A stretch of DNA of 64,000 bases from Candidatus Melainabacteria bacterium (GCA_963780635.1 CAWACW010000002.1:24667-88666); one strand, 5' to 3'; shown: positions 37,467 to 56,493, counted from the first letter of the stretch. Numbers and translations are program-made. Notes: generated by a model from the sequence alone, not told the origin.

Positions 37467-37470
37467 CCCG

Positions 37471-37839: not shown

Positions 37840-37850
37840 TCCAAAGGACG

Positions 37851-38423: not shown

Positions 38424-38439
38424 CGGACCAGCCAGGTTT

Positions 38440-39813: not shown

Positions 39814-39816
39814 GGC

Positions 39817-40935: not shown

Positions 40936-40947
40936 CTCCGATCTCAG

Positions 40948-41322
40948 CTAGCCAGAAGTCTCCCACGCCATGCCCGGGTGCCGGTAGAATCCAACGAAGC
41001 CAACAGGTTCCGGTACCGCCAAGTTGATGATCTGCACTCCTGGATGCGGTAACCCGTAGCAGCCGTCCGAGCGATAAGGCCCAGCAACTGGCGGCCATGC
41101 GCAAACCTTCGTCTCGATGTCATATCCATTGGCCTTCGCAGGATCGTGGGTAGGCCGACCTGCGACCTGCCCAGGGCCGAACGGTCGAGTGGTGGGCTCG
41201 TCCGGCGGCCGAACGGCACGGTAGTGGCGCAGCGCGCCGTCGACGGACATGATCCGGGCTTGCACGACACGGCGCAGGACACTCCGGCGTGGTGTGCGCA
41301 TCTGGTCGAGGTCCTGCGTCAT
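40948..41322 (-). CDS. hypothetical protein (124 aa), first large ORF of the prenyl-indole operon
   Basis: ATG at 41322 with AGGAG upstream. Ends 12 nt before the prenyltransferase start. ..GYDIETKVCAWPPVAGPYRSDGCYGLPHPGVQIINLAVPEPVGFVGFYRHPG... It is the only credible part of the 669-aa tracked ORF 40948..42957. Confidence 0.5.
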   Translation of the reverse strand: MTQDLDQMRTPRRSVLRRVVQARIMSVDGALRHYRAVRPPDEPTTRPFGPGQVAGRPTHDPAKANGYDIETKVCAWPPVAGPYRSDGCYGLPHPGVQIINLAVPEPVGFVGFYRHPGMAWETSG

Positions 41323-41483
41323 CGCCTGCTCCTGGAGCGGGGTCCGGCGATGCGCAGGACATGGCCGTGGGTGCACACGTAGCACCGGTCGACCACCGTG
41401 TAGAGGTTGCATGTGTGGTCGCCGACGGGGAAGGTCAGGACCGGGCGGCCAGTCGACGCCGCAGGCGCGGTCGCCGCGGTCAT
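41319..41483 (-). CDS. small Cys/His-containing ORF (54 aa) translationally coupled to the 124-aa ORF
   Basis: AAGGGGG plus ATG at 41483. MTAATAPAASTGRPVLTFPVGDHTCNLYTVVDRCYVCTHGHVLRIAGPRSRSRR. The TGA overlaps the downstream ATG (ATGA). It falls below the ORF-track length cut-off. Confidence 0.35.
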   Translation of the reverse strand: MTAATAPAASTGRPVLTFPVGDHTCNLYTVVDRCYVCTHGHVLRIAGPRSRSRR

Positions 41484-41600: not shown

Positions 41601-41850
41601 GGGCCACCGGGGGCTGGCACGGCACCGTTGGTCGACCGCTCAATGGCCGAATCGGCTCGTCGGGATGATCGTGCAGGTGCCATGCCGTCGACCTTGCACG
41701 TTCCCGACCCTGCGCGATAGGGAGGATCCCGGGGATGTCAAGGGGATACTTAGGGGAGGATTGGAAGCCTCCCCATCCCACGCCGAGTAGTGGCGTGCGC
41801 ACTTTCCGTGCCACGATGAGCTGGTCAGATAACTGTGGAAAGGCAGCAGG
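41601..41850 (+). repeat. copy A of a roughly 250-bp duplicated non-coding element
   Basis: Aligns base-for-base with 51601..51847 in the same orientation. Shared blocks are CTGGCACGGCACCGTYGGTCGACCGCTC, TCGTCGGGATGATCG, GGGAGGAT and GGGATGTCAAGGGGATACTT-GGGGAG-ATTG-AAGCCTCCCC. Copy A ends exactly at the XRE ATG (41851). Confidence 0.9.
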
Positions 41851-43167
41851 ATGGTCACAGCCAATGATCAGCTTCGGCTGGCACGAGAGCGGACCGAATC
41901 GCCCTCCCAGCCGGGTACATGCCTGTCCCGCCCGGAGCTTGCGCAGCTGGTCAACTCCTATGTCGAGGACCATCACCCCGACCACCATGTCAATCTGGAC
42001 GCTAACTACATCGGCAAGCTCGAACGCGGCGTAATCCGCTGGCCGACCGATGACTACCGGGAGGCGTTGCGGTCGATCTTGGGAGTGTCCAGCGACGCCG
42101 CGTTGGGATTCACCAACAAACGCCGCGTGGTGGTAGAGGTGGTGGACGTGGATCGCAAAAAGTTCCTGCGCACCGCCGCACTCGGCGTTGGTGCGGTCGC
42201 TCTCGCGCCGGTCGCGGCGATGCTGCAGGGCGCTGAACCGACCCCGATTCCGGCCCGTGTCGGCGCTACGGAGATCGGCCAGATCCGCACTGCCGCACGG
42301 GTGTTCGCAGGTTGGGACCACAGTTACGGTGGTGGTCTCGCACGCGAGGCTGTGCTCGCGCAGCTGCAGTGGTCGGCTGGCCTGTTGGACGCGACCTGTC
42401 CGGCCCGGCTTCGCGGGCAGCTCTACAGCGCGGTGGGCTACCTCGCCCACACCTGTGGGTTCAACTCGTTCGACGCCTATGCCCATACCGACGCCCGCAA
42501 CACTTTCCGGTTCGCCTTTGCCTGCGCTGAAGAGGCCGACGATTGGCACCTGCGCGCCAAGGTGCTCTCCTCGATGGCCCGGCACGAGATCTGGACAGGC
42601 CACCCTGACGATGGCCTGACGCTGACGGAGCATGCGCTGGTGCGCGCCGACCGGCTGACCGCCACCGAACGCGCCATGCTGCACACCGCGCATGCACGCG
42701 CCCTGGCCAAGATGAATCGGGTCCGCGAGACATTGATCGCGGTCGGCACCGCCGACGACCAGTTCGCCCGTGCCAACCCAACCAACGATCCGCCGTGGAT
42801 GGTCTACTACGACGCTGCGCAGCACCACGGCGACACCGGTCACGCCCTGTTCGATCTGGCGATCCGCGGCCGGGCGGCGGGCGAGGCGGGCACGCGGTTG
42901 GCCGCGGCGGTCGCCGGGCATACCAATGCGTTCGCCCGCTCTCGGGCGATCTCGCAAACCAAGCTGGCGTCGCTGATGATGGCCACCGGTGACCCTCTCG
43001 AAGCCGTCACGATCGGCACTGCCGCACTCGAGGCGGCCGGCGCCATTCGGTCCCGCCGCGCCGCCGAGGACCTACGCGAACTGGCCCGCCACGCTGGCCG
43101 CCACTCGACGGTCCGCGAGGCCATCGCCCTGCGCCGCCGCATCACCGACCTGGTCCTCGCCCCGTGA
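41851..43167 (+). CDS. XRE-family HTH regulator with TPR-like C-terminal domain
   Basis: ..LSRPELAQLVNSYV..DANYIGKLERGVIRWP.. HTH. 438 aa. Divergent from the prenyl-indole operon. Confidence 0.82.
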   Translation: MVTANDQLRLARERTESPSQPGTCLSRPELAQLVNSYVEDHHPDHHVNLDANYIGKLERGVIRWPTDDYREALRSILGVSSDAALGFTNKRRVVVEVVDVDRKKFLRTAALGVGAVALAPVAAMLQGAEPTPIPARVGATEIGQIRTAARVFAGWDHSYGGGLAREAVLAQLQWSAGLLDATCPARLRGQLYSAVGYLAHTCGFNSFDAYAHTDARNTFRFAFACAEEADDWHLRAKVLSSMARHEIWTGHPDDGLTLTEHALVRADRLTATERAMLHTAHARALAKMNRVRETLIAVGTADDQFARANPTNDPPWMVYYDAAQHHGDTGHALFDLAIRGRAAGEAGTRLAAAVAGHTNAFARSRAISQTKLASLMMATGDPLEAVTIGTAALEAAGAIRSRRAAEDLRELARHAGRHSTVREAIALRRRITDLVLAP

Positions 43168-44078
43168 GCGTGCCACCGACCGAGCCATCCGCTGGGCAGT
43201 TGGACATCGGCACGAGCACGGTGCTGGCCGAGGCGTGTGCACAGGCTGGGCTGGATTTTCGTGGCGCCAAGCCGATCCGGCTCGGGGAGAACGCCATCGT
43301 CGGCCTGCCCGGCGGCATCGTGGTCCGCATAGCCCGACCTGGCCAGTTTGCCGCCGCCTCCCGCGAGGTCCAGATAGCCCGCTGGCTGGCCGAGCAGGGT
43401 GTGCCCGCCGTGCGTGTCGTCGAGGGCATCACGCAACCCGTCCACACGCTCGGGCGAGCGGTGACGTTCTGGCACGAGCTGCCGCCTCACGAACACGCCA
43501 CCCCAGCCCAGGTCGCCGACGCCTTGCGCCGGCTGCACGAGTTGCCGGTCCCGACCGGGTTCACCCTCGGACCGCTGGCGCCGTTCGTGCGGCTGGCCGA
43601 GCGCATCGAGGCCGCTACCACAGTGCCAGATGAGGACCGGACCTGGCTGCACCGGCACCTGAGCGCGCTGCAGGGTCGCTACGCAGAGCTGCCCGCCGGT
43701 CGGCCGCATCGCGTGATCCACGGCGACGCCTGGGTGGGCAACCTCGCGGCGACCGCCGACGGCCTCATCTGGCTGGACCTGGAACGCTGCGCGATCGGTC
43801 CACCCGAATGGGACTTGATCAACACCACCCTGCGCTACACCAGCTTCGCCTGGATCAGCGCCCGGGAGTACCGCGAATTCGGCCGCGGCTACGGCTACGA
43901 CGTCACCAACTGGCCCGGCTTCGCCCTGCTGCGCGACATCCGCGAACTGCGCATGACCTGCTACACCGCCCAGCACGCGGCCGAGAACCCGGCCGCCCAG
44001 ACGGAAGCACTGCTGCGGGTCGCTTGCCTGCGGGGTGAGCGCGGCCCCAGGCCGTGGCAGTGGACTCCCGCACCGTGA
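43164..44078 (+). CDS. aminoglycoside-phosphotransferase (APH)-fold kinase family protein
   Basis: RVIHGDAWVGNL (catalytic HGD..N) and LIWLDLERC (metal-binding D). The GTG at 43164 overlaps the XRE stop (GTGA). Confidence 0.82.
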   Translation: MSVPPTEPSAGQLDIGTSTVLAEACAQAGLDFRGAKPIRLGENAIVGLPGGIVVRIARPGQFAAASREVQIARWLAEQGVPAVRVVEGITQPVHTLGRAVTFWHELPPHEHATPAQVADALRRLHELPVPTGFTLGPLAPFVRLAERIEAATTVPDEDRTWLHRHLSALQGRYAELPAGRPHRVIHGDAWVGNLAATADGLIWLDLERCAIGPPEWDLINTTLRYTSFAWISAREYREFGRGYGYDVTNWPGFALLRDIRELRMTCYTAQHAAENPAAQTEALLRVACLRGERGPRPWQWTPAP

Positions 44079-44501
44079 CCGCACCGCGAACGTCCGCTCA
44101 CGGCCTTTGATCGATGGGCGCCTGGTCGCCGGCAGTATCAGATCGTCTCGCGCGCTTACGCGAACGCCACGCGCAAAGAAAGTGCTCGGCCTGGATGGCG
44201 AGTTCCCTGAACACGGCTAACGCCGATTCGCGTCGTTCCTGGGAAGTCCAGGCGAGCGCCAACTTCCGCGCGGCGCGTCGGTCACAGGAGACCATCAGGC
44301 GCCCTATCGCGAAGGACAACCCATCCGCACGTCTTACGACCACGTGGGCGGAGGGCTGCCAGCAGCCATCCAGACGAATGCGCAATCTTGGTCAGGTCCG
44401 ACAGCGCGCTCACGGGGGTTGCTGATCGTGGCCCACATCTGCAGCGATCGGACGCACTGGACACGGTCGCCGCGTCCCGCGGACTAAAGCAACCCCGCCA
44501 A

Positions 44502-44541
44502 CAGTGGCGGTACACCAACGTGTGCTGGTGTACCGCCACTG
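44502..44541 (-). terminator. perfect 16-bp hairpin (CAGTGGCGGTACACCA-N8-TGGTGTACCGCCACTG) downstream of the lanthipeptide operon
   Basis: Read directly. It lies about 110 nt after the methyltransferase stop (44649) on the minus strand. Confidence 0.5.
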
Positions 44542-44648
44542 TCTGGGCCGGCAGGGCCCAATTCGCCTTGTTGGTCCACGGTGAGCTGTCCAACGAGAGC
44601 TGCGACCTCCGCACTTCCTCCGTGTGACTGTTCAGCGCAGGGTTCTGA

Positions 44649-46745
44649 TCACCAGGTGATGGTTACGTGGGTGTGCGGTCGAACGATGTGGCTGGGCGAG
44701 GAGATTTGGCCATCGTGTGTGTCGATGTGTTGGGCGCGGATGGTGGGCTGGCTCGGGCGTTCCCGGTCCCAGCGGTGCAGGAGTTCGCCGACTTGGGCGG
44801 CGAGCCTCTCGCTGTCGGGTCCGTGCGCGACGACGCCCAGCTCGCTCACGCCGTCACCCTGGTCGCGCATAGCAAGGTAGGCCAGGGTGACGCCCTCGTA
44901 TATCGTCGCACCCGCCCAGCGCAGTGCGGGATCGACGAGACCGCTGTTGCGGGCCACGGGCCCGACGGACAGGCGGCCGAAGCTGCCGCTGCCGGTGGTC
45001 AGCAGCCACAGGTCGAGGTGCTCGGCCGGTTCGTCGTCGCGGATCTGGATGCCTGTCCACCGTGCGTGCGCCTCATAGGTGAGCGCGCGGCTGAGGACGG
45101 CTTCGTCGGGTGTGTCCTGCGCGTCGACGTGCAGGACCACGTCGTCGGTGAGTTGCACGAACTCTTCGTCGTGTTCAGTCGAGCCGCGCATGGGGACGAA
45201 GCCGCAGACGAGCGCTGAGTCACTGATCATCGAGTCTGGCTGGTCGACGTCGAATGCGATGGCTCGGGTGAGACCGCTGCCGTGCAGGCGCAGTGGCACG
45301 ACGATGCGGCCTCCGACGGCGAGTTGGTCCCACCAGGCGGCCGCGATGTCCCATGCCCCCGCGGTGATGATGAGCCTGTCGTAGGGTGCTCGGTCGGAGT
45401 GTCCCAGTGCGCCGTCGCCGCAGATCACCTCGACCTGCCTGTATCCGGCCGCAGCCAGTCCGCGGCGGGCGCCGGCGGCCAGGTCGTCATCAAGTTCGAT
45501 GGTGACGACGTTGCCGATGGCGCCGGTCAACTCCGCCAGCAGGGCGGCGTTGATGCCGGTCGCCGCGCCGATCTCCAGGATTCGGTGACCAGGCCGGACG
45601 CCGAGTTGTTCGAGCATCTCGGCCACGAGATTGGGGCTGGACGCTGAGGAGAGCGCCGTCCCGTTGTCCGCGCGCTTGGTCACGACTGGTTTGGGTGCGT
45701 ATGCGATGGAGGGGTCAACGCCGGGCAGAAACAGATGCCGCGGCACGGTGCGGAACGCACGCTCGACCTCAGGGGTGCGGAACGTGCCACGGCCACGGAT
45801 GTGGTCGGCGAGAGCCGTCCGAAGTGCCTGCGGATCGGGGGTCGTCGTGTCCATGGTCTGGGTAGTCACCGTTCTTACTGTAGGGGTCTGGGGATGGGCC
45901 GAGCGGCTTACCGACCCGATCGTGGATGTGTCGTGGCGGTGGAAAACCACTTGGCTGGCGGCAGTGGCCAGGAGGTATTGGTGTGTGGCCGAAACGCCCA
46001 AGCGGTTGAACGCGAACATCAGATGATGGACCAGCACGGCCCGCATTCCGCGTGTGAGGTCACCCCGGCGATACAACTCGGTGAGCGTGTTGCCGGCCCT
46101 GTCGAAGGAGGCGGGCCAGGCGGGCGCGGCGCGAAGCGGGCTGCCATCGGCATCGTCAGCGGCCGTGATGAGTCGCTGCACGGCCGCCACCAGTTGCGGC
46201 GATGGCACAACCTGCACGTCCTGTGCCCGGTGCGCGGCGAGTCGGGCCCAGGCGTCGCCCTGCTCGTACCAGTCCAGTCCGGCAGCACGCAGGAGCCGGG
46301 TGCCCAGGATCAGGCCGAGTTCGCGACGCTGATCCGGATGGTCCTCGGCCAGGTGGCGCAGGACATGGCGGCTGTCAGCGTGGAAGAGCGCGTGGGCAAT
46401 GTTCGTCGCCGCGGATCCGCCGAAGGCATAGATCTCGGGTTCATAGATGAGCGCGGCGTGGCGCTGGATTGCGCCTTGTGCCACGAGCGCCGCCGTCATC
46501 CTGCCCACGAACTCGGTTGCCCTCGCATCCCCGTCCTCCGTGGAACGGAACCGTACCCGCCACGATTTTCCTTTCCGGACGAACCACCAGCCGGCGATGG
46601 ATCCGTCGCTTTCCGCTTCGGTCACCAGAGGCCGCAGGCCCGTCACGGCCATGTGTTCGGCGGAGCGCCAGTCCTCACACCACAGGTCCACCTGCCGCCA
46701 CCGGGTCGGGGTGATGTGCCGGGTCGGGGTGATCTGCTCGGACAT
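44649..46745 (-). CDS. FxLD-system methyltransferase: SpaB_C-like domain fused to protein-L-isoaspartate(D-aspartate) O-methyltransferase
   Basis: The N-terminus AGWWFVRKGKSWRVRFRS matches the thiopeptide/lantibiotic-dehydratase C-terminal-type motif. The centre carries the PIMT SAM motif RILEIGAATGINAALLAEL and ..YDRLIITAGAWDI... 698 aa. Architecture matches TIGR04364-type proteins. Confidence 0.88.
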   Translation of the reverse strand: MSEQITPTRHITPTRWRQVDLWCEDWRSAEHMAVTGLRPLVTEAESDGSIAGWWFVRKGKSWRVRFRSTEDGDARATEFVGRMTAALVAQGAIQRHAALIYEPEIYAFGGSAATNIAHALFHADSRHVLRHLAEDHPDQRRELGLILGTRLLRAAGLDWYEQGDAWARLAAHRAQDVQVVPSPQLVAAVQRLITAADDADGSPLRAAPAWPASFDRAGNTLTELYRRGDLTRGMRAVLVHHLMFAFNRLGVSATHQYLLATAASQVVFHRHDTSTIGSVSRSAHPQTPTVRTVTTQTMDTTTPDPQALRTALADHIRGRGTFRTPEVERAFRTVPRHLFLPGVDPSIAYAPKPVVTKRADNGTALSSASSPNLVAEMLEQLGVRPGHRILEIGAATGINAALLAELTGAIGNVVTIELDDDLAAGARRGLAAAGYRQVEVICGDGALGHSDRAPYDRLIITAGAWDIAAAWWDQLAVGGRIVVPLRLHGSGLTRAIAFDVDQPDSMISDSALVCGFVPMRGSTEHDEEFVQLTDDVVLHVDAQDTPDEAVLSRALTYEAHARWTGIQIRDDEPAEHLDLWLLTTGSGSFGRLSVGPVARNSGLVDPALRWAGATIYEGVTLAYLAMRDQGDGVSELGVVAHGPDSERLAAQVGELLHRWDRERPSQPTIRAQHIDTHDGQISSPSHIVRPHTHVTITW

Positions 46746-46773
46746 GACAGTGTCTCTTCCTCCTGGTAATCGG

Positions 46774-48036
46774 TCAGTTCAGCAACAGGCAGGTCTGCCA
46801 GCCGGTTGTTCCAGCGGCGATGCTGTGCAGGGCGAGGGCCATGCCGGCGCCGCCGTCGATCAGTCCCGACGTGTCCGCGGACAGCGGATCCTCGGCGTGT
46901 TCCAGCAGCCTGTCGAGTAGGGGGGGCAGGTGCAGCCCGACAGTCGGTGCGCGGGCGTCACTGGCGACGGACCAGGTGGTCACGAGCAGCCCTGCCCAGC
47001 CGTGACACAGGCTGCGGTCGATGATGCTGCCCAGTTGACCCGGGTCAGCCAGACACCGCGCGAGGGCGTCTTCCGCGGCCTGCTGGCGGGTGTGGTCGTG
47101 CAGCGCCAGAGCGGCCAGTTGTTGAGCACGTGCCAGGCCGGGAGTGCCGTAGCACCAGGATGGCCGCCCTGGTCCGGTGTGGACCGGCCGGCCGGTGAGC
47201 AGCTCGCTGCCACCTATGTATTTGGGCCACGACGGCCCGGCCGGTGAGTCCTGGCGCCAGGTGTCCAACCAGGCACAGATCGCTTCGACGGCGCCGGTGT
47301 GACCGTCGACGGTGATGCCGTGGCGCAGCGCGAGGGCCAGCAGGGCCAACGGTCCGGCGATGCCATGGGCCATGCCGAAGTTGGCGTGCCCGCCACGGAA
47401 CCGGAGACACGTTCGCCGCGACGGGGCCTCAGCACTCCACCAACCCGGAGCGTGGCGCCCGGCCTCGTCATCGGCGCACACCGGTGACGTGAGATGCACC
47501 AGGTACTCCAGGATCCGGCCCATCAACTCGCCGTGCGGATCACGGTGCAACAGATGCGCGCCCAGCCCGGTGAGGCCACGGACCAGATCGAATTCGGACA
47601 GTTCCGGTCGCGCCCGGGCATTGATCCGCGCATGAGCAGCGTCCACGCGTCGGTGGCCGAGTTCCGTGACCGCGGAGTCGAGGTGCGTCCGCGCCCGGCG
47701 GTAGCGCTGCGGAACGGCGAGTGTGAGGGCGAAGGCGACCGCGGGCGCGCCGAACCACAGGCCGGCGCCTCGGCCGGCGCTGAGATCCTCGGCAGTCGCA
47801 CGGGTCAGCCACGCGTGCACGCGCTCCTGGCTGCCGTGCCCGTCGCGGGCGCGGACACCGTGCAGGACGGCGATGCCGGCCGCTCCGCTGGACAACGACT
47901 GGTGTCGCCAGCGGCGGCTGCTCAAGCCGCGATCGTCGGATGGTTGTAGCGGTGGTGGCGATGCCAGCGCATCGCTGATCCGGGCCGACATCGCCTCAGC
48001 GACGTGCAGGCGGCGTCCGTCGTGCAGGCTCGTCAC
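46774..48036 (-). CDS. lanC: lanthionine synthetase C-family cyclase (LanC)
   Basis: NFGMAHGIAGP, SWCYGTPGLA and RSLCHGWAGLL, the zinc-ligand Cys/His motifs of LanC. Start overlaps the lanB stop. Confidence 0.9.
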   Translation of the reverse strand: MTSLHDGRRLHVAEAMSARISDALASPPPLQPSDDRGLSSRRWRHQSLSSGAAGIAVLHGVRARDGHGSQERVHAWLTRATAEDLSAGRGAGLWFGAPAVAFALTLAVPQRYRRARTHLDSAVTELGHRRVDAAHARINARARPELSEFDLVRGLTGLGAHLLHRDPHGELMGRILEYLVHLTSPVCADDEAGRHAPGWWSAEAPSRRTCLRFRGGHANFGMAHGIAGPLALLALALRHGITVDGHTGAVEAICAWLDTWRQDSPAGPSWPKYIGGSELLTGRPVHTGPGRPSWCYGTPGLARAQQLAALALHDHTRQQAAEDALARCLADPGQLGSIIDRSLCHGWAGLLVTTWSVASDARAPTVGLHLPPLLDRLLEHAEDPLSADTSGLIDGGAGMALALHSIAAGTTGWQTCLLLN

Positions 48037-51000
48037 AGTTCTTCCTCGGCGGCTGCGGACCGCGCTTTCCAGGCCAGGGCGACCGCGCGGGCGACACGGT
48101 GGGACAGCGCTTCCTCGTCGGGGTCGATCCCGCGGGCGCGCACGTGGTGCATGTGCAGCAGCGATACCAGGACCGAGGACGGCGTGATGTGGCTGTTGTC
48201 GGCGCTAAGACACCCTGCATACTGAGTCGCGGCGTGGCGCCGCTGGGCCCAGGCGTGCGCGATCTGACCGCCGTTGGGCAGTGTCAACAAAGCGGGCGTA
48301 GCCGCGTTCACGTCGGCCAACTCGACGGCCTCACGGACCACAGTGCGGTCGCCTATCGGTGCGTGACCGGTGAGGTCGGCGTGCTCGAGCAGCCATCGCA
48401 TGCCCCGCGACCGGCTTCCGGTCATGGCGCAGGCCAGGTCCACCAGGCTGGCTGCGATGAGCGCCCGCGCAGACACCGCGCGCGTGTTCGCCTGGGCGAG
48501 GAGTTGGATGAGGACGGCAGTGGAGTCCGCAGCGAACAGTGCCTCGGCTGCGCCCATCGTCGCGCCGCTGCCGTACCGCGCGGTTTCCGGTCGGTAGGTG
48601 CTCAGCGTGAGGTCGCCGACCAGGCCACGCCGCCGCAGGTCGGCCGCCCACACCCCGACGCGGTTGGCGGCCTGCCCGTACTCGAGTAGGCCCTGCAGGC
48701 GTAGGCGCAGCTGCGGGGTCGGGGTCCGGTACCGCGCGAACCACCACATCGGTGGTTCGTCCCAGGTTGCGAGCAGGGTGGGCAGATGCTGGGTGAGGAT
48801 CGTGTCGACGATGTCGGGATGCCCGTAGACCTGGGCGTTGAGGACCGGTGATCCTGGCAGCGCGCCGTGCTCTGCCCCGACGATCGGCAGCGGCGCCGAG
48901 GTGGCCAGGACCGCGGGCGGTTGGGCCGGCGGTGCGGTCGCGGCCAGCGGAATGGTGATCTCGTGCGGGCGGCCGTCGAACCAGCCGTGGTCGGCGGCGG
49001 TGGGTGCCTCAGCCACGGTGAAGGCGCCGCCGAGCTTGTGCACGTGCTCGCGCAGCACCGCCAGATCCAGCGGGTCGTCCAGGTTCAAGCGCAGTCTGCG
49101 ATCCCCCGTGCCCACATACACCGCGGCCGGTAGGCCCAGACGATCCCGCAGCGCGCCCAGCGATGCTGTCCAGTCGCTGCGCGAGGCTGCTGGGCCCGGC
49201 AACCGGCCGGGCGATATCCGCCACCGAGCGGCGGCCAGGATGCTGCGGCCGTAGCGGACCCGGGGCCGGAACGGCAGGCAGTCGGCTGCGCCCCAGTCGA
49301 ACACCGACACGGCCGCGTTCGTCGCTCGCGGAATCTCGAACAGCACACGCGCGAGTGCGGGCATGGCGTGCCGCGCCGCGGCGTGGGTCAGAACCGGCTC
49401 CACAACGCGCCGCCGTGACAGGGACACCAGATACATCCGGTGGTGGTCGGCCGTGACCGCGAGATCACCGACCGGGATGCGGTCGTGCGTGTCGTGATGC
49501 TCGGCCACGGAGATCAGGTGGGGCAGCACTCGTGGTGCGTGCAGCACGTTCTGGGCGTGAGAGTTATGTGCAGGAAACGACAGTTGAGCGGGTATCGCGC
49601 CCTCGACCCCTACGGGCAGCTGCCGGTAGAGCCCGATCATACGCGCTCGATCGGCGTCGGGAAGAAGGTCGAGGAATCGACCGCTGGTGGCGATGGCCGT
49701 CGCGGCGATCCCGGTCACGGCGAGTGTGAACGCTCCCTGGGTCAGCGCCGACGTCGTGTGCGCTCGGACATCCACGCACAGGTCGATATGCGGAACCGGC
49801 CGCACCGAGGCGCCGTCACCAGCGGCCAGGCTGTCGATCATGTCCTCGTCGAGGACGACTTCCTGCGCGCCATCCACGGCCGCCTGCTGGGCGAGCGCCA
49901 GCAGGCGCTCATCGCGGCGCGGCAACCACGCCGTGGCGGCAGGGTCCGGCGGCTGTGCGTAGTGACGGGGAAACCCGAGGCCGGCCGTCGGATCGACGAG
50001 GTCGGTGACCGCGACGACGGCGTGGGGGCCATAGCGGTCCAGGAACCTTGTGTGAAAGTCGCGCCAGGCTGGATGACCGTGCGGATGCGGGGTCAGCCTG
50101 AGCAACGCGCCGGCCGCGGCCTCGGCTTCGATCGCCACCTGCGCGGGCAGCGCCGTCGTGCAGCCCAGCCGCAGATCGACCATCAACGGCTGCTCTACGG
50201 CGCCAGGCACGGCGCGCATCCGCGCGGCGACCGCGTGCCTGGCCCGTCCGTCGGCCCAACCCAATGCGGCGTCCGCTGCAAGCAGTTGTGTTCGGATCGC
50301 ACGGAGCTCGCCGACCAACAGTGCGACCTCCGGCGCTCCGATGGCGTCCACTGCGGGCAGCTGATCCACGACGTGGCCGAGCCCATCGGCGATCATCGAG
50401 GGAGGCCGCAGCGAGGTGATCAGTACGCCGTAGGCGATCAGTTCACGCAGCATGGCTTCGACCGCAGAACGTGGCGCGGTCGGGAACGCCGCCGCGATCT
50501 GGTCGATCAGGTCGGCGACGCGGATGGGTGACCGTGTGGCGCGCAGGACCACCTGGACCGCTCGGCTGTGCCGAACCGACACTTCGACCGTCGCCCCGGC
50601 GTGGGAGTCATCAGCGCGTGGTCCGCCGGGTACCACCACGCGGTCACCGCGCACGACCGCCAGGGTGTTCGACGTGACGGACAGATGGGGCCACAGTGTC
50701 GGACAGGCTTCCAACAGCGTGACCACCGCGGCAAGCCACGCCGCATCGGCTCGTGTCCGGGTCTGGTGATCGTCGGTCCATCGCACCGAGGTCTGGTGGC
50801 CGAAGCGCAGCGCCGCCACACCGGCGAAGGTCCCGAACGGTGTGGCCCGCCCGCGCAGCCGTACCAGGTACCGGGCAGCTGACATGACCATGCGCCGCGC
50901 CTGCCCAGGGCTCGGACGCGGGTCCTCCCCCATCGCCTCGACGCGGGCGGCCAGTGTTGGGCTGGCGATGGCGACGGCCTGGGCAAGCGACGGCTGTGAC

Positions 51001-51164
51001 CACACCTGGGCAAGCCATCCGCACAACGCGTCGCCGTCCATGCCGAGGTTGTTGCCGACGTTGATGCCGACGCTCAGGTCGGGCCACGGCACGGAATCCG
51101 CCTCGCCGGCATACGTGCTGGCACGCAGCAGCGCCGCGTCAATGTGCCGATACTGGCGCGCCAC
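48033..51164 (-). CDS. lanB: class I lanthipeptide dehydratase (LanB)
   Basis: 1043 aa. An N-terminal Lant_dehydr_N-like region is followed by the C-terminal elimination domain with MWWFARYRTPTPQLRLRL. Confidence 0.9.
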   Translation of the reverse strand: MARQYRHIDAALLRASTYAGEADSVPWPDLSVGINVGNNLGMDGDALCGWLAQVWSQPSLAQAVAIASPTLAARVEAMGEDPRPSPGQARRMVMSAARYLVRLRGRATPFGTFAGVAALRFGHQTSVRWTDDHQTRTRADAAWLAAVVTLLEACPTLWPHLSVTSNTLAVVRGDRVVVPGGPRADDSHAGATVEVSVRHSRAVQVVLRATRSPIRVADLIDQIAAAFPTAPRSAVEAMLRELIAYGVLITSLRPPSMIADGLGHVVDQLPAVDAIGAPEVALLVGELRAIRTQLLAADAALGWADGRARHAVAARMRAVPGAVEQPLMVDLRLGCTTALPAQVAIEAEAAAGALLRLTPHPHGHPAWRDFHTRFLDRYGPHAVVAVTDLVDPTAGLGFPRHYAQPPDPAATAWLPRRDERLLALAQQAAVDGAQEVVLDEDMIDSLAAGDGASVRPVPHIDLCVDVRAHTTSALTQGAFTLAVTGIAATAIATSGRFLDLLPDADRARMIGLYRQLPVGVEGAIPAQLSFPAHNSHAQNVLHAPRVLPHLISVAEHHDTHDRIPVGDLAVTADHHRMYLVSLSRRRVVEPVLTHAAARHAMPALARVLFEIPRATNAAVSVFDWGAADCLPFRPRVRYGRSILAAARWRISPGRLPGPAASRSDWTASLGALRDRLGLPAAVYVGTGDRRLRLNLDDPLDLAVLREHVHKLGGAFTVAEAPTAADHGWFDGRPHEITIPLAATAPPAQPPAVLATSAPLPIVGAEHGALPGSPVLNAQVYGHPDIVDTILTQHLPTLLATWDEPPMWWFARYRTPTPQLRLRLQGLLEYGQAANRVGVWAADLRRRGLVGDLTLSTYRPETARYGSGATMGAAEALFAADSTAVLIQLLAQANTRAVSARALIAASLVDLACAMTGSRSRGMRWLLEHADLTGHAPIGDRTVVREAVELADVNAATPALLTLPNGGQIAHAWAQRRHAATQYAGCLSADNSHITPSSVLVSLLHMHHVRARGIDPDEEALSHRVARAVALAWKARSAAAEEEL

Positions 51165-51256
51165 GACTGTGCCCCCGTCCTACGAAATCGTTGTGCCGTT
51201 AGGGAAAACCGGTGCCCGGTCCAGCCGGCCTCGTAGTGGGACCGGGCACCGGCGAC

Positions 51257-51388
51257 TCAGCAGTCCCCGTCTTTCCGCGTGTCGCATCCGTCGTCGGTGC
51301 TACTCAGCAACGCGGCGTCGGGCCGTGCAGCAGCGACGATCGTGACGTCGAGGTCAAGTTCGCCGTCGGCAACGTGAGGGTTATCCAT
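51257..51388 (-). CDS. lanA: FxLD-family lanthipeptide precursor (43 aa)
   Basis: MDNPHVADGELDLDVTIVAAARPDAALLSSTDDGCDTRKDGDC. AGGAGG lies 6 nt upstream of the ATG at 51388. The leader has LDLDV in place of FxLDV. The C-terminal part has 2 Ser, 2 Thr, 2 Cys and several Asp. It lies 92 nt upstream of lanB. Confidence 0.8.
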   Translation of the reverse strand: MDNPHVADGELDLDVTIVAAARPDAALLSSTDDGCDTRKDGDC

Positions 51389-51600: not shown

Positions 51601-51847
51601 GGCCACTGGGACTGGCACGGCACCGTCGGTCGACCGCTCGATGGCCGATCCGGGTCGTCGGGATGATCGCGTTGGTGCCACGCCATCGACAATGCACGCT
51701 CACGGCCCGGCGCGGAAGGGAGGATTCAAGGGATGTCAAGGGGATACTTCGGGGAGAATTGCAAGCCTCCCCTTCCGGCGCCGAGCAGCGGCATCTCCAC
51801 GATGTGCGTCCGGATGGCCTGGTCAGACGCCTGCGGAAAACGGCGTC
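51601..51847 (+). repeat. copy B of the roughly 250-bp duplicated element
   Basis: See copy A. It lies 212 nt upstream (minus-strand sense) of the lanA start. No XRE gene follows it. Confidence 0.9.
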
Positions 51848-51932
51848 CGCCACCGTCACCGGGCCCGGCCGGACTCACCCGTGCCGAGATCAGGTACTCA
51901 CGCGCCAGCCGGAGCAGCAGCGTCGGCGAGTC

Positions 51933-51972
51933 GTGGCGGTGGACGCGCCCGCGCGGGCGCGTCCACCGCCAC
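51933..51972. repeat. perfect 40-bp palindrome GTGGCGGTGGACGCGCCCGC|GCGGGCGCGTCCACCGCCAC
   Basis: Read directly. The two halves are exact reverse complements with no loop. Confidence 0.9.
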
Positions 51973-52135
51973 GAATACTGCACGACCAAATACTGGCTAC
52001 TTGACGGTCTTCGTCCCGCAGCCCACCGTCCGAGCGCCCGCGGTCGACCCCGCACCGACCCCGCTCGTGACAGAGTCTGCCACACCGCCGTCCCCCGACG
52101 TGGTCACCGAGCCGGTTAGCGCGCCGGGTGGGAAA

Positions 52136-52338
52136 GTGACCGTGCGCGCGGAGAAGCGGACGCTCACCCTGTCTAATCTGGAAAGGTGCTGTACCCGGCC
52201 GACGGGTTCACCAAGGGCGAGGTGATCCGCTACTACAGCCTCATCGCGCCGGTGCTACTCCCCCAATTGAAAGGTCGACCGGTCACCACGATCCGCTACC
52301 CGGACGGTGTGGATGGCCAGCAGTACTTCGAGAAAACG
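52136..52338 (+). pseudogene. N-terminal fragment of a LigD-type NHEJ polymerase/primase domain, frameshifted and truncated
   Basis: VTVRAEKRTLTLSNLE(K)VLYPADGFTKGEVIRYYSLIAPVLLPQLKGRPVTTIRYPDGVDGQQYFEKT. The frame breaks in the AAA run at 52182-52184. Similarity stops after FEKT. Confidence 0.65.
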
Positions 52339-52435
52339 ATCTCCTGTCGGGCGGCCTGCTCCGCGTCCTGGCCGGGGTCGCCGACTGGGCCGGCTGGCCA
52401 TAGATGGCGGCTGCACAACCGTGCTCGGTCGGCCA

Positions 52436-52639
52436 TCACGCGACCCAGCGTGCTGGTAGCAGGCAATCGGTCTTCTCCCATTCGCCACACCGCAGCATCG
52501 GGCGCTCCCATATCCAGCTGCCGCCGATCTCCGGGATCTCGGTGCAGGTACCTGTGCGTCGGTCCCATGTCCTCACCACACGAAGCCCGCAAGCGGTGTT
52601 CACGTCCGGGAACACGTGCTCCGCCATCACCGGCCTCAC
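52436..52639 (-). CDS. small Cys/Trp-containing ORF (67 aa) overlapping the CPBP stop
   Basis: ..MAEHVFPDVNTACGLRVVRTWDRRTGTCTEIPEIGGSWIWERPMLRCGEWEKTDCLLPARWVA. About 78% GC3 by hand count. Start overlaps the CPBP stop codon. Confidence 0.3.
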   Translation of the reverse strand: MRPVMAEHVFPDVNTACGLRVVRTWDRRTGTCTEIPEIGGSWIWERPMLRCGEWEKTDCLLPARWVA

Positions 52640-53577
52640 GCACGGCTATCTGCGGGGCGTTGAGTGGCGAAAGGCGGGCCTTGCCGACGGCGTTTGCGGA
52701 TCTGGTCACCCGGCCGCACTGGTTTCGTCACGACCCAGCCCCCCACGACAGCCCACACCAGGACCGCCAGGCCAAAATCGACAATGCCGCCCCACACCAA
52801 GCTCAGTGACACGCTGATGACATCGAACAACGCATGCGCCACAATCAGTGGTATGAGCGCGCCACTCCGGCGATAGACGTAAGGAAGAAGGAGTGCCAAC
52901 GGAACGATGTCCGGAATCACCTCGAAACCCTGGTACAGGTGATACCCAACGCGCAACGCCGCCAAAATGCCAATCGACCACCACCCGTACCGTCCGAGCT
53001 GGCGACCACGCCCAAGGGGGATGTAGTCCAACAAACGCGCACACACACCGAGAAGTAGTGTTTCCTCACTGATCGCCGTCAACGACGACGTCACGATCAC
53101 CAGCCATGCCGGCGGATCGGACGAAAGGAATGCCGGTGCTGTGCCGACTAACCCTGGGAGCCTTGTCGCCAGAACTTTGAGTACATACAGGCCGATGACG
53201 ACTATCACTGCTGGGCCCTGAAAGTAGGTGCCCGCGGTTCGTACGTGACCAGTCCAGCGCAGCGCCGGCCGCAGCCCCACAGCGCGCGCCCCGTCCGCAC
53301 CAGCAAGACACCCCAGCCCCACGACCCCGAGCAGAGCGTTCAACACGTAGCTGCGGATGGCGGACGCGTCCTCGGCCGCGTGCGTCGTGCCGGTTGTTGG
53401 TGCGGAACCGTGAAGAAGAGCCGCCCACGAACTCGTCGTGATACGCCACAGAAGATACAATGCGCACACGGCGGCCGCACCTCTGAGCAACCACCGCCAC
53501 CATCCGGAAGCGGGTGGGCTGTATCGAGGTCGCAGACGTGGTTTACTGGCCATGGTTCGCTTTCGTCGACTCGGCAA
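52636..53577 (-). CDS. CPBP-family intramembrane glutamic endopeptidase (CAAX protease/Abi-type, bacteriocin-immunity-like)
   Basis: Polytopic protein with motifs AISEETLLLG (EExxxR-like), GYHLYQG and IVAHALFD (HxxxD). Confidence 0.78.
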   Translation of the reverse strand: MPSRRKRTMASKPRLRPRYSPPASGWWRWLLRGAAAVCALYLLWRITTSSWAALLHGSAPTTGTTHAAEDASAIRSYVLNALLGVVGLGCLAGADGARAVGLRPALRWTGHVRTAGTYFQGPAVIVVIGLYVLKVLATRLPGLVGTAPAFLSSDPPAWLVIVTSSLTAISEETLLLGVCARLLDYIPLGRGRQLGRYGWWSIGILAALRVGYHLYQGFEVIPDIVPLALLLPYVYRRSGALIPLIVAHALFDVISVSLSLVWGGIVDFGLAVLVWAVVGGWVVTKPVRPGDQIRKRRRQGPPFATQRPADSRA

Positions 53578-53583
53578 TGGGAT

Positions 53584-53715
53584 CTAAAGAACGAAGTTGG
53601 TAACGACCCACAGAACGCAGACCATCAAACACACGATGACCGCACGGACCGACACCACGACTGCCCCGCGGTAGTGCGGCGTACCGAACGGCCGACGTTG
53701 CAATGTTCTAGACAT
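53584..53715 (-). CDS. 43-aa single-helix membrane peptide upstream of the CPBP gene
   Basis: MSRTLQRRPFGTPHYRGAVVVSVRAVIVCLMVCVLWVVTNFVL. Ends 6 nt before the CPBP start. Below the ORF-track cut-off. Confidence 0.3.
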   Translation of the reverse strand: MSRTLQRRPFGTPHYRGAVVVSVRAVIVCLMVCVLWVVTNFVL

Positions 53716-54280
53716 GACTCGCTTTTCACAGTTTCACCAAGGTCAGCGCCGGTAAGGGCGTGCGTGCGCCCACGGCCCAGCTACACGCATAGCTTCGCGA
53801 TTTACTCTCGGCCGCCAGCCACCAGCGCGGGGGCGAGGAGAGATCCTCCGCATTTATTCGTGAACGCCACAATTCGCCGTGGGTGACAAGGGATGGACGT
53901 GAGCCTCGCCGCAGGATGAAGAACCGTCGTAGCAGCGCGCGGCCGCAACACCACACATTTGCCCAACGCTCGCGGTGCCGACGGGTGGGCGGCCCACCCC
54001 TCTGAGCGGAGGGCGACCGTAGCCGGTCCGCCGCGGATACACCATCGTTGCACAGCGTCGTGATTCCGCCTCCAAGGTCGAGGCGCCAACCATCCTGCGT
54101 TCTCCTTCATGCCGCACGTCATCCCCAGCCGGGCGACCTGATAGTGGCGTACACGCGACCGCGGCGGAAGATCAAACCGTCGTACATTTCCGTACGTCTA
54201 TGGACATGCACATGTACGTCCCACGCACACGGAGCTGGCTCTACACTCGCGCAAAACGCGACCGGAAAGGGGCCGACCAG

Positions 54281-55597
54281 GTGCCGCCCAACGAACGGCT
54301 GCGAGCGGTACGAATGCAAGCTGGGATGAGTCGGACCGAACTCGCGGCGGCGGCCACCGAGTGGCTACAGAGGCGTGCCGGTGGAGGGTCCCATCGCTGT
54401 CCGCGTCGGCTGGAAGAACACTCGGTCGGGCGGTACGAGCGCGGCAATGTGGGCTCCCCTCACCTGCTGGTGTTAGCCGCTCTCCGCCACGTCCTCAAGG
54501 TCACTACGGACGCCGAACTGGGCTTTCCCGGCAATGCCGAAGCGACCGGCGCCAACACCGGCGTCGAACCGCGATCGACGATCGCCGCCACGGATCTCCT
54601 CGCTGCCGCGGCCGCGTCGACCCGGTACCTCCCCGCCGCAGAGCACACCAATATCGGCGACCTCAGCATCGAGCAATTGCACACGGAAGTGCGGCGCGTA
54701 GCCAGCAGCTACCTCAAACAGCCGGCGCCGCAACTGTTCATCCGCACCATCCAGCTGCGAGACCATGCATTCGAACTACTCGCCGGGCGCCAGCCACCCC
54801 GCCGCGCCCGCGACCTGTACGCTGCCGCCGGCTGGGCCCTGACGATGCTGGCCTGGATGTCCGTGGACCTGGGCAGCCCGGACGCCGCCGACGATCACCT
54901 TCGCGTCGCCCTGGCGTGCGCGCGCAACGCGGAGGTGCCGAACCTAGCGGCTTGGGTCCGCGCGACCCAGCACACGGCGGCCTATTGGCGCCGGGATTTC
55001 CGTGGAGCCGCCGCCTACGCCAACGCAGGTTCGCAGGAACCCGGTGTCACCGGCACCGCCGCCACCTTCCTGGCCAGCGCCCACGCCGTTGATCTCGCGC
55101 GACTAGGCCAGCACAACGAAGCGCGCTGCGCCCTTGACCGGGCCCACCGCCTTGCCGACGACGCAGAGCTGAGAGCCGACGAAATGGGCGGGCCACTGAC
55201 CTGCACGCCGGCCCGAGCCGCGTCGCTGTGGTCGGACGCCTACCTCGTCCTCGGCGACGCCGCCAGCGCCTTGTCTGCGGCAAAGGCGGCGGTCGACGGA
55301 CTCCAGGCCGCCTCACCCGACGTGCGGAATGTCGGCAGCCTGCGGATGTCATGGGTTCAGGTCGCCAAGGCACATCTGGTCGACGACGCCCTGGACGGTG
55401 CAGCGCAGGCACTCGCGTCGGTCCTGGCCACCCCGCCAGCTCACCGTGTAGGCCCACTACGACACCGCACGGCAGAAATCAAAGCCATGCTGTCCGGCTC
55501 CACCCGGACCGCCGCGCCAGCCATGGACATCATCGCCGCGATTGACGACTTCAACTCCGACCAACCGACTCACGCAAACCCCAGGGACGAGGCATGA
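54281..55597 (+). CDS. XRE-family HTH regulator with TPR-like C-terminal domain
   Basis: GTG at 54281 (VPPNERLRAVRMQAGMSRTELAAAA..SVGRYERG..). Same architecture as the ORFs at 29563 and 41851. The tracked 54200 start is less likely. Confidence 0.8.
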   Translation: MPPNERLRAVRMQAGMSRTELAAAATEWLQRRAGGGSHRCPRRLEEHSVGRYERGNVGSPHLLVLAALRHVLKVTTDAELGFPGNAEATGANTGVEPRSTIAATDLLAAAAASTRYLPAAEHTNIGDLSIEQLHTEVRRVASSYLKQPAPQLFIRTIQLRDHAFELLAGRQPPRRARDLYAAAGWALTMLAWMSVDLGSPDAADDHLRVALACARNAEVPNLAAWVRATQHTAAYWRRDFRGAAAYANAGSQEPGVTGTAATFLASAHAVDLARLGQHNEARCALDRAHRLADDAELRADEMGGPLTCTPARAASLWSDAYLVLGDAASALSAAKAAVDGLQAASPDVRNVGSLRMSWVQVAKAHLVDDALDGAAQALASVLATPPAHRVGPLRHRTAEIKAMLSGSTRTAAPAMDIIAAIDDFNSDQPTHANPRDEA

Positions 55598-56246: not shown

Positions 56247-56468
56247 ATGGCCGATCTCGGTCGACGCTCCGGCCCCAGCCAACGCCAGATAGGCGTTGCA
56301 CGGGCGTTGTGTGTGGCTGCCCGGGACAACATCCAGATCCACGGGGCGCTCGGCTTCACGTGGGAGCACGATGCGCACCTCTACTACCGCCGTTCCATCG
56401 CCGACGACCTGTTGCTCGGCGACGCCGCGTGGCACCGCGACCGGCTCGGTGCCCTGCTCGGTGTCTGA
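56247..56468 (+). pseudogene. acyl-CoA dehydrogenase C-terminal fragment
   Basis: ..ARDNIQIHGALGFTWEHDAHLYYRRSIADDLLLGD.. matches only the ACAD C-terminal helix bundle. Confidence 0.55.
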
Positions 56469-56493
56469 CCGGCACCGCACGGAAGGACCGGAC

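What the first reader, a model, noticed from the sequence alone, without database searches (positions are those of the whole stretch)
44649..51388. Minimal FxLD-type class I lanthipeptide cluster with no transporter, protease or regulator
The cluster is lanA (43 aa), lanB, lanC and a SpaB_C-PIMT fusion methyltransferase, closed by a 16-bp hairpin. This is the FxLD architecture (TIGR04363/TIGR04364). In the OlvA/OlvSA system the methyltransferase methylates an Asp, leading to an isoaspartate (beta-amino acid) in the mature peptide. No ABC exporter, leader peptidase or immunity gene lies inside the cluster. The nearest candidates are the CPBP protease trio 1.2 kb upstream and the duplicated regulatory element.
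Basis: partly seen in the sequence, partly recalled or inferred. Interest (0 to 1): 0.6.

Follow-up and report, generated by a model that had tools for sequence, protein, structure and literature searches.

The report
Ordinary coi-type (lanthiphage-like) lanthipeptide operon
This is an intact four-gene operon for a small, two-ring, acidic lanthipeptide of a well-described actinobacterial family, and having no exporter or protease is normal for that family, whose tested members protect the producing cell against phages.

Summary
Window 44649-51388 (minus strand) holds lanA (43 aa), lanB, lanC and a PF14028-PF01135 fusion gene. All catalytic motifs are intact. A conserved hairpin follows lanA and a strong terminator follows the last gene.

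- The closest model is the coi cluster of S. coelicolor (lanthiphage_Sco), not olv. The fused N-terminal domain carries the syn-glutamyl-lyase signature (Lys58, with Ala107 where NisB has Arg826).
- Published work shows that this family usually lacks transporters and proteases and probably acts inside the cell against phages.
- No ABC ATPase or S8 protease lies on the contig. The CPBP gene is not conserved with the cluster.
- A regulator is not really missing. Ten of 12 related loci have an XRE-type gene just upstream of lanA, divergent from it in seven. Here only that gene's 232-nt upstream element remains beside lanA. The intact XRE-TPR gene sits 10 kb away behind the other copy.
- The two-Cys core (TDDGCDTxxxxDC) is a common subfamily, annotated in databases but uncharacterised. 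This member lacks LphF/CoiH.

Verdict: a new member of a known kind, of modest interest.

The parts
51257..51388 (-). lanA precursor, 43 aa. The leader carries LDLDV (Leu in place of the Phe of FxLD). The core ends ...LLSS-T31-D-D33-G-C35-D-T37-RKDGD-C43.
   Evidence: 37 database homologues have the same core pattern and several are named 'FxLD family lanthipeptide' by NCBI or JGI.
51208..51253 (-). Stem-loop of 15 pairs directly after the lanA stop, followed by UUUU. Probably an attenuator or mRNA stabiliser that sets the lanA:enzyme ratio.
   Evidence: -44 kcal/mol, z -2.2; a 14-22-bp stem at the same position in all 13 related loci checked, with unrelated sequences.
48033..51164 (-). lanB, a full-length class I dehydratase (glutamylation domain plus anti-type elimination domain).
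   Evidence: Present: R102/R106/T108 (RxxxRxTPFG), Y812, R820/R822, E860, R863, H1004. MibB (5ehk) matches at E 2e-91.
46774..48036 (-). lanC cyclase.
   Evidence: H224 (AHG), C295 (WCYG) and C344-H345 (CHG) are conserved against NisC and 8byk. It is translationally coupled to lanB.
44649..46745 (-). Fusion of a syn-type glutamyl lyase (residues ~16-266) with a PIMT-like O-methyltransferase (306-698). Equivalent to LanSA of the coi type, also called LphDE.
   Evidence: Lyase part: K58, R63, R65, E104, A107. Methyltransferase part: SASSP 367-371, EIGAATG 391-397, GDG 443-445. TIGR04364 scores 474 bits.
44501..44542 (.). Terminator hairpin between the operon's end and the convergent APH gene.
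51608..51839 (+). Copy B of a 232-nt element, 220 nt upstream of lanA, with no regulator gene behind it. Probably the operator/promoter region.
   Evidence: It is 79% identical to copy A, and the genome holds only these two copies.
41610..41841 (+). Copy A of the element, ending 9 nt before the ATG of the XRE-TPR gene.
41851..43167 (+). XRE-TPR-like gene (P0004), the candidate trans-acting regulator of the operon.
   Evidence: homologues next to lanA in L007, L008 and L019. L006. XRE-type genes just upstream of lanA in L001-L007 and L009. P0004 itself has no Pfam hit.

Best explanation
This is an intact operon, lanA-lanB-lanC-(glutamyl lyase-methyltransferase), of the coi-type branch of the actinobacterial LanSA ('lanthimiditide') or 'lanthiphage' family.

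Inferred pathway:
1. LanB glutamylates Ser/Thr of the 43-aa precursor using Glu-tRNA.
2. Glutamate is eliminated either by LanB's own anti-type lyase (giving Z-Dhb/Dha) or by the syn-type lyase fused to the methyltransferase (giving E-Dhb).
3. LanC closes two thioether rings, Thr31->Cys35 and Thr37->Cys43.
4. The PIMT-like domain then methylates the Asp of the TxDGC motif (Asp33). This gives an aspartimide that opens to isoAsp/Asp.

The hairpin after lanA keeps precursor mRNA in excess. The operon has no exporter or dedicated protease. By analogy with the tested family members, the product most likely stays in the cell and interferes with phage gene expression. Expression is probably set by an XRE-type regulator acting on the 232-nt element upstream of lanA.

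What is shown: gene content, intact motifs, and the conservation patterns. What is inferred: ring topology, the methylation site, the lyase's target residue, the anti-phage role and the regulation.

I put the biosynthetic assignment at about 0.9 and the anti-phage role at about 0.5.
For: - Family hits are far above chance.
- Catalytic motifs are intact in LanB, LanC and the methyltransferase.
- The fusion's lyase domain has Lys58 where anti-lyases have Tyr. It has R63/R65. It has Ala107 where NisB has Arg826. These are the features that define the syn-lyases CoiSA(ED) and SptBb (PMC9486935).
- Thr31, Cys35, Thr37 and Cys43 are invariant in the 37 database homologues and in the precursors read from 12 related loci. 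Asp33 is nearly so: it is Asn in three sequences. Ser29 and Ser30 vary.
- TxDGC is the published motif carrying the conserved Asp (PMC13001092).
- Only these four genes are syntenic across the 33 loci.
- No ABC ATPase or S8 protease lies on the contig.
- Published work: clusters with LphB/LphC/LphDE gave phage resistance in five of five systems tested. No activity was found in spent medium. Only 18% of such clusters lie near ABC transporters (bioRxiv 10.1101/2024.06.26.600839).
- The flanks of the 12 closest loci hold restriction-modification, DISARM-, BREX- and Hma-like genes, plus relaxases and recombinases.
- The window's left third is ICE-like.
- The cluster has no orthologue in the 11 same-genus genomes searched.
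Against:
- This two-Cys core and the LphF-less architecture were not identifiably among the systems tested for phage defence.
- The Thr57 that CoiSA's lyase acts on in CoiA1 has no counterpart here, so the lyase's substrate is unknown.
- No complete known defence system was recognised in the window itself. There are only isolated mad2-like and GajB-like hits.
- The canonical-His column of the lyase alignment is ambiguous, because a conserved His lies two columns away.
- P0004 has no significant Pfam HTH hit.
Confidence: 0.7

Rival explanations
1. The product is a secreted lanthipeptide (an antibiotic, or a morphogen like SapT). It would be exported by a transporter and trimmed by proteases encoded elsewhere in the genome.
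For: - Most characterised class I lanthipeptides are secreted.
- The genome has 145 ABC ATPase hits and 15 S8 protease hits elsewhere.
- SapT also uses a syn-type glutamyl lyase (PMC9486935).
- The lanthiphage authors say they cannot fully rule out secretion.
Against: - No transporter or protease recurs next to the cluster in 12 close relatives.
- The core is very acidic (charge about -3 to -4) and lacks a lipid II-binding motif.
- Tested family members showed no extracellular activity (bioRxiv 10.1101/2024.06.26.600839).
Confidence: 0.2
2. The cluster is a silent or decaying remnant that lost its adjacent regulator in a rearrangement and is no longer expressed or useful.
For: - Copy B of the control element is followed by a 44-bp perfect palindrome and a truncated LigD fragment instead of the XRE gene.
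- The region 51.4-58 kb is full of low-GC3, fragmentary ORFs.
- The coi cluster of S. coelicolor is itself silent under standard conditions.
Against: - All four ORFs are uninterrupted, with GC3 of 0.81-0.83, typical for this genome.
- All catalytic residues are intact.
- The ribosome-binding sites, translational coupling, attenuator and terminator are preserved.
- An intact XRE-TPR gene with the same upstream element lies 10 kb away.
Confidence: 0.07
3. The neighbouring CPBP/Abi protease unit (52436-53715) is the missing leader peptidase or immunity factor of this cluster.
For: CPBP/Abi proteins are known bacteriocin immunity or maturation factors. The gene lies 1.2 kb from lanA.
Against: - No homologue of the CPBP ORF occurs in any of the 33 related loci.
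- It is separated from lanA by the rearrangement scar and a LigD fragment.
- Its codon usage is atypical: it was not picked by the GC3 filters.
- Four other PF02517 genes lie elsewhere in the genome.
Confidence: 0.05

Closest known systems
coi cluster of Streptomyces coelicolor A3(2) (CoiA1/CoiB/CoiC/CoiSA/CoiH), also called lanthiphage_Sco (PMC9486935; bioRxiv 10.1101/2024.06.26.600839)
   Same: - A full-length LanB, a LanC, and a glutamyl lyase-PIMT fusion with the Lys signature of syn-lyases.
- An FxLD-type leader and a TDDGC first ring.
- No transporter or protease.
- An acidic core.
   Different: - The window has two Cys and two conserved Thr, so two rings (T31->C35, T37->C43). CoiA1 has three rings.
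- The C-terminal Thr that CoiSA's lyase targets is absent.
- There is no CoiH/LphF gene in the window or the genome.
- There is one precursor gene instead of two.
- Coi-like loci (L018, L020) match the fusion at only 39% identity.
olv cluster of Streptomyces olivaceus NRRL B-3009 (OlvA/OlvB/OlvC/OlvSA)
   Same: - A class I LanB and LanC plus a LanSA methyltransferase that converts the Asp of the first MeLan ring to aspartimide/isoAsp.
- A minimal cluster without protease or exporter.
   Different: OlvSA is a methyltransferase only. The window's enzyme carries an extra lyase domain, and OlvA has four rings and more Cys (PMC9486935).
Lanthiphage family (Shomar et al. 2024): LphB, LphC plus LphD/E/DE/F
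   Same: - LphB, LphC and LphDE architecture.
- Found in actinobacteria.
- No ABC transporter.
- Relatives sit among defence and mobile-element genes.
- A conservon lies nearby, as with Cvn8 in S. coelicolor.
   Different: - The core is TxDxC-x7-C, not the majority motif TxDxCxxxCxxxC.
- There is no LphF.
- Placement in the defining LanC clade and anti-phage activity were not tested here.
SapT system (SptBa/SptBb split dehydratase)
   Same: A syn-type glutamyl lyase with Lys in place of Tyr and a non-Arg residue at the NisB-R826 position.
   Different: In SapT the lyase is part of a split LanB and the product is a secreted morphogen. Here it is an extra domain beside a complete LanB.
Nisin-type class I clusters (NisABTCIPRK)
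   Same: LanB and LanC chemistry, and a hairpin after the precursor gene.
   Different: Nisin clusters encode an exporter, a protease, immunity genes and a two-component regulator. LanC and LanB here are only distantly similar to NisC and NisB (E 1e-9 and 3e-16).

Membership tests
FxLD lanthipeptide system (TIGR04363 / TIGR04364) | Methyltransferase matches TIGR04364 above its curated cut-off. | tested here: met
   474 bits against a cut-off of 320, covering the full length of the model.
FxLD lanthipeptide system (TIGR04363 / TIGR04364) | Precursor matches TIGR04363 above its cut-off and has the FxLD leader motif. | tested here: inconclusive
   27.6 bits against a cut-off of 30 (E 2e-6). The motif reads LDLD. 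Homologues with 64-85% identity and the same LDLD leader are named 'FxLD family lanthipeptide' by NCBI and JGI.
Class I lanthipeptide synthetase pair | LanB has intact glutamylation and elimination residues. | tested here: met
   R102, R106, T108, D140; Y812, R820, R822, E860, R863, H1004. The NisB numbering equivalents come from my own knowledge and from PMC9486935.
Class I lanthipeptide synthetase pair | LanC has its zinc ligands (Cys-Cys-His) and its catalytic His. | tested here: met
   C295, C344, H345, H224.
coi-type cluster (lyase-methyltransferase fusion) | PF14028 and PF01135 lie in one polypeptide, beside a full-length LanB. | tested here: met
coi-type cluster (lyase-methyltransferase fusion) | Syn-lyase signature: Lys replaces the Tyr of anti-lyases, a non-Arg residue sits at the NisB-R826 position, and the RxR pair is kept. 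| tested here: met
   K58, A107, R63/R65. The canonical-His column is Val, but a conserved His two columns later leaves that point ambiguous.
coi-type cluster (lyase-methyltransferase fusion) | CoiH/LphF gene lies downstream of the fusion. | tested here: not met
   - tblastn with four LphF homologues against the window: best E 0.7.
- No match in the own genome, which is 90.6% complete.
- hhalign against the XRE-TPR proteins: probability 0.2%.
- LphF is present in L002, L007, L008, L012, L017-L020.
coi-type cluster (lyase-methyltransferase fusion) | Three-ring core with T..C, T..C and C..T spacing (TxDxCxxxCxxxC). | tested here: not met
   the core is TDDGC-DTRKDGD-C, with only two Cys.
Lanthimiditide (LanSA substrate) | Conserved Asp in a TxDGC core motif. 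| tested here: met
   T31-D32-D33-G34-C35. The motif is described in PMC13001092. Asp33 is Asn in three relatives (L002 and L009, P0010), and P0007 has Asn where the others have Gly34.
Lanthimiditide (LanSA substrate) | Methylation, aspartimide or isoAsp actually forms. | not testable with these tools
   Needs mass spectrometry of the co-expressed product.
Lanthiphage (Shomar et al. 2024) | LphB and LphC plus an LphD/E/DE accessory enzyme. | tested here: met
Lanthiphage (Shomar et al. 2024) | LanC falls in the 'defensive' LanC clade. | not tested
   Indirect evidence only. LanC is 47-66% identical to the LanCs of loci with LphDE/LphE, against E 1e-9 to NisC. No reference tree was available.
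Lanthiphage (Shomar et al. 2024) | Confers phage resistance. | not testable with these tools
   Needs plaque assays.
Lanthiphage (Shomar et al. 2024) | Located in a defence island or mobile element. | tested here: inconclusive
   - The window has an ICE-like block at 0.4-24 kb and isolated mad2-like and GajB-like hits, but no complete system.
- Relatives' flanks hold restriction-modification, DISARM-, BREX- and Hma-like genes plus relaxases.

The most novel reading that the evidence does not exclude
The two-ring, LphF-less 'TDDGCDTxxxxDC' subfamily is biochemically distinct from coi. The Thr that CoiSA's syn-lyase targets does not exist here. The retained syn-lyase must therefore act on Thr31 or Thr37, placing a rare D-allo-L-MeLan in a different ring. 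In addition, the operon would be co-regulated in trans with the prenylated-indole operon, through the duplicated 232-nt element and one XRE-TPR protein.
Probability: 0.3. Interest if true: 0.45.

Novelty: new member of a known kind. Interest (0 to 1): 0.25.

Why it matters
It adds one more, rather distant, member to the largest uncharacterised group of actinobacterial class I lanthipeptides. The closest genomic relative of its fusion protein is 72% identical. The group has recently been linked to intracellular phage defence. The useful points are modest.
- The two-Cys core subfamily is widespread but has not been studied experimentally. It would show what the extra syn-type lyase does when its known target residue is absent.
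- The comparison shows that an XRE-type gene just upstream of lanA is the most recurrent neighbour of this subfamily. This gives a handle for activating these usually silent clusters.
- The missing exporter, protease and regulator is not a discovery. It is the documented norm for the family.

Tried and rejected
- LphF/CoiH: searched in the window by tblastn, in the whole genome and by profile-profile comparison with the XRE-TPR proteins. Not found.
- CPBP 'trio' as protease or immunity factor: rejected. There is only one PF02517 domain and no homologue in related loci.
- Conservon cvnABCD (34390-38423) as the regulator, by analogy with Cvn8. This is attractive: there are 6 conservons in 7.5 Mb, so by my estimate about a 2% chance of one lying this close. 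I downgraded it because the conservon abuts the tryptophanase/prenyltransferase operon. Only one related locus (L026) has a conservon.
- Rfam scan of the whole window: no match, so the 232-nt element is not a known RNA family.
- The 232-nt element has no sequence counterpart in related loci.
- Literature search for the core sequence (TDDGCDT and variants): no paper found.
- Acedo et al. 2019 (PMC6812601) is not held. Facts about olv are taken from PMC9486935 and PMC13001092.
- The promoter consensus scan found nothing, as expected for a high-GC actinomycete.
- No structure prediction was run. The sequence evidence was sufficient.
Full report
**Observation.** The minus strand of window 44649-51388 carries four tightly packed genes.
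- lanA (51388..51257) encodes MDNPHVADGELDLDVTIVAAARPDAALLSSTDDGCDTRKDGDC and is preceded by AGGAGG.
- lanB (51164..48033, 1043 aa) matches PF04738 (E 5e-204) and PF14028 (E 1e-38).
- lanC (48036..46774, 420 aa) matches PF05147 (E 8e-35). Its GTG start overlaps the lanB stop.
- The last gene (46745..44649, 698 aa) combines PF14028 (residues 16-266) with the FxLD-system methyltransferase TIGR04364 (306-698; 474 bits, cut-off 320).
- The precursor scores 27.6 bits on TIGR04363, just under the 30-bit cut-off.
- The closing hairpin exists at 44501-44542, with 17 Watson-Crick pairs and z -4.8.

**Are the enzymes intact?** Yes.
- LanB keeps the RxxxRxTPFG motif (R102, R106, T108) and D140.
- Its elimination domain keeps Y812, R820/R822, E860, R863 and H1004.
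- LanC keeps H224, C295 and C344-H345, aligned to NisC and 8byk.
- The methyltransferase keeps the PIMT substrate and SAM motifs: SASSP, EIGAATG, GDG and PYDRLIITAG, aligned to 1dl5 and 1jg1.
- GC3 is 0.81-0.83, like other genes of this genome.

**What the fused domain is.** Sarksian and van der Donk (PMC9486935) showed that S. coelicolor CoiSA is a glutamyl lyase-methyltransferase fusion. Its lyase performs syn-elimination, giving E-Dhb and then D-allo-L-MeLan. It is recognisable by three features:
- a Lys (K46) where anti-lyases have Tyr;
- a retained RxR pair;
- a hydrophobic residue at the NisB-R826 position.

I aligned 23 LanB elimination domains and 23 accessory lyase domains from related loci with the two window domains. 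The window fusion reads FVRK58...R63xR65 and PE104IYA107FGG. The window LanB reads FARY812...R820xR822 and PE860TAR863YG. The fusion therefore carries the syn-lyase signature, and LanB is a canonical anti-lyase. The canonical-His column is Val in the fusion, but a conserved His lies two columns away, so that single point is ambiguous. The closest characterised system is thus coi, not olv, whose OlvSA has no lyase domain.

**The precursor.**
- A database search found 37 homologues. All read ...LDLDV.IV..GP.AAALLSSTDDGCDTxxxxDC or a close variant. Several are named 'FxLD family lanthipeptide' by NCBI or JGI. They come from Streptomyces, Kitasatospora, Actinacidiphila and Pseudonocardiaceae.
- Genomic loci add Micromonospora, Salinispora and Actinoallomurus.
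- Leu in place of the name-giving Phe is the norm for most of this subfamily. The Micromonospora, Salinispora and some Pseudonocardiales loci keep Phe (FELD, FDLD).
- Thr31, Cys35, Thr37 and Cys43 are invariant. Ser29 and Ser30 are not. Two rings (31->35 and 37->43) are therefore the likely topology (inference).
- T31-D-D33-G-C35 fits the TxDGC motif in which the conserved Asp is methylated (PMC13001092).
- In three relatives position 33 is Asn-Gly (L002 and L009; P0010). Asn-Gly also forms a succinimide readily (established chemistry), which fits that site being the functional one (inference).
- The core differs from the majority lanthiphage motif TxDxCxxxCxxxC. It lacks the C-terminal Thr on which CoiSA's lyase acts in CoiA1. 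The target of the syn-lyase here is therefore unknown.

**Is the minimal architecture unusual?** No.
- Only the four genes are syntenic across the 33 related loci.
- No ABC ATPase (145 hits in the genome) and no S8 protease (15 hits) lies on the contig.
- Among 75 flanking ORFs of the 12 closest loci, no transporter or protease family recurs.
- The literature says the same. Coi and olv encode no protease (PMC9486935).
- Shomar et al. (bioRxiv 10.1101/2024.06.26.600839) define more than 2000 'lanthiphage' clusters (LphB, LphC plus LphD/E/DE/F). Only 18% of them lie near ABC transporters, against 63% for other class I clusters.
- In that study, five of five systems tested gave phage resistance. 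No activity was found in spent medium and phage adsorption was unaffected. Phage late transcription was altered, and escaper phages carried mutations in a phage GNAT gene.

The window cluster has the LphB/LphC/LphDE content. It lacks LphF/CoiH, which follows the fusion in L002, L007, L008, L012 and L017-L020. LphF is absent from the window, from the genome, and from L001, L003-L006, L009 and L011.

**Context.**
- The flanks of the 12 closest loci contain type I and type II restriction-modification genes and DISARM-, BREX-, Hma- and Dpd-like proteins. They also contain relaxases, serine recombinases and a Tn3 transposase.
- The window's first 24 kb looks like a conjugative element. It holds a coupling protein, DUF4913, a 2268-aa methylase-helicase and a UvrD-like helicase.
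- No complete known defence system was recognised in the window.
- None of the 11 same-genus genomes searched has an orthologue. Their best match is 43% identical, while the closest loci are Pseudonocardiaceae MAGs at 67-72%.
- The cluster is single-copy in its genome.

All of this fits an accessory, horizontally mobile trait.

**Regulation.**
- A stable stem-loop follows lanA directly (51208-51253, then UUUU). A 14-22-bp stem sits at the same place in all 13 related loci examined, although the sequences are unrelated. This is a conserved structural feature, most likely an attenuator or stabiliser.
- In related loci the gene just upstream of lanA is an XRE-type regulator. It is HTH_31-DUF5753 in L001, L004, L005 and L009. 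It is HTH-TPR in L002, L003, L006 and L007. P0004 homologues occupy that place in L008 and L019. The gene is divergent from lanA in seven of these ten loci.
- In the window this position holds only a 232-nt element (51608-51839). The element is 79% identical to a second copy (41610-41841) that ends 9 nt before the ATG of an intact XRE-TPR-like gene (41851-43167). These are the only two copies in the genome.
- Copy B is followed by a 44-bp perfect palindrome and a truncated LigD fragment.
- I read this as a rearrangement that separated the regulator gene from its operator region. The operon would then be controlled in trans (inference).
- A complete conservon, cvnABCD, lies 6 kb away. It recalls Cvn8, which represses the coi cluster (bioRxiv 10.1101/2025.07.03.663114).

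**CPBP unit.** Only one PF02517 domain is present. It has no counterpart in any related locus. I reject it as part of the system.

**Verdict.** This is an intact but ordinary member of the coi-type LanSA/lanthiphage family. It belongs to a widespread, database-annotated but experimentally unstudied two-ring subfamily and lacks LphF. Novelty: a new member of a known kind.

Noticed in passing
window 420-23900 (- strand): An ICE- or plasmid-like block. It holds a UvrD-like helicase (4031-5752; GajB-like PADLOC hits), a 2268-aa methyltransferase + ResIII helicase protein (7276-14082; mad2-like hit), DUF4913 (14162-14974), a T4SS coupling protein (15471-16862) and several large ORFs with no family hit.
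   Followed up: partly
window 24573-27023 (+): An 816-aa STAND-type regulator (NB-ARC/AAA plus a C-terminal LuxR/GerE HTH).
   Followed up: no
window 34390-41483: A complete conservon cvnABCD (NIT+HATPase, Roadblock, DUF742, ATP_bind_1), convergent with a tryptophanase (38440-39813) and DMATS-type prenyltransferase (39817-40935) operon. The genome has 6 DUF742 loci.
   Followed up: partly
window 51931-51974 and 52186-52809: A 44-bp perfect palindrome with no loop, followed by an ORF that matches only the first 45 positions of the LigD primase-polymerase domain. It looks like a rearrangement scar between lanA's control region and the CPBP gene.
   Followed up: partly
window 56924-57008: A 10-nt tandem repeat (CGCGTCGCGT-like) inside an acyl-CoA dehydrogenase-like ORF (56296-57378), giving a RRVASRRVAS... 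run. The ORF looks degraded.
   Followed up: no
L021-L026, L028, L030 (LanB elimination domains): In loci with four-Cys, olv-like cores, LanB's own elimination domain has lost the RxR pair (for example YLAVYL). A separate stand-alone lyase with the syn-type Lys signature is encoded nearby. Elimination may have been handed over entirely to the accessory lyase there.
   Followed up: no
L001, L003-L006 (fusion lyase domain): These Streptomyces/Actinacidiphila fusions have Arg (ETRRFGG / ETYRFGG) at the NisB-R826 position while keeping the syn-type Lys. This mixed signature differs from the window's Ala107.
   Followed up: no
L009 9974-12042: In the closest MAG the lyase and methyltransferase parts appear as two overlapping ORFs (9974-10828 and ~10768-12042). 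This could be a real split (LphD + LphE) or an assembly frameshift.
   Followed up: no
L026 346-2522: A second example of a conservon (CvnA-, CvnB- and CvnD-like matches) within 4 kb of a LanSA-type lanthipeptide cluster, in Streptomyces pratens.
   Followed up: no
window 29563-30801, 41851-43167, 54200-55597: Three paralogous XRE-TPR-like genes in one window (20-26% identical to one another). Two of them are each followed on the same strand by an enzyme gene: an APH-fold kinase at 43164-44078 and a likely 2'-5' RNA ligase-superfamily gene at 55604-56239.
   Followed up: partly
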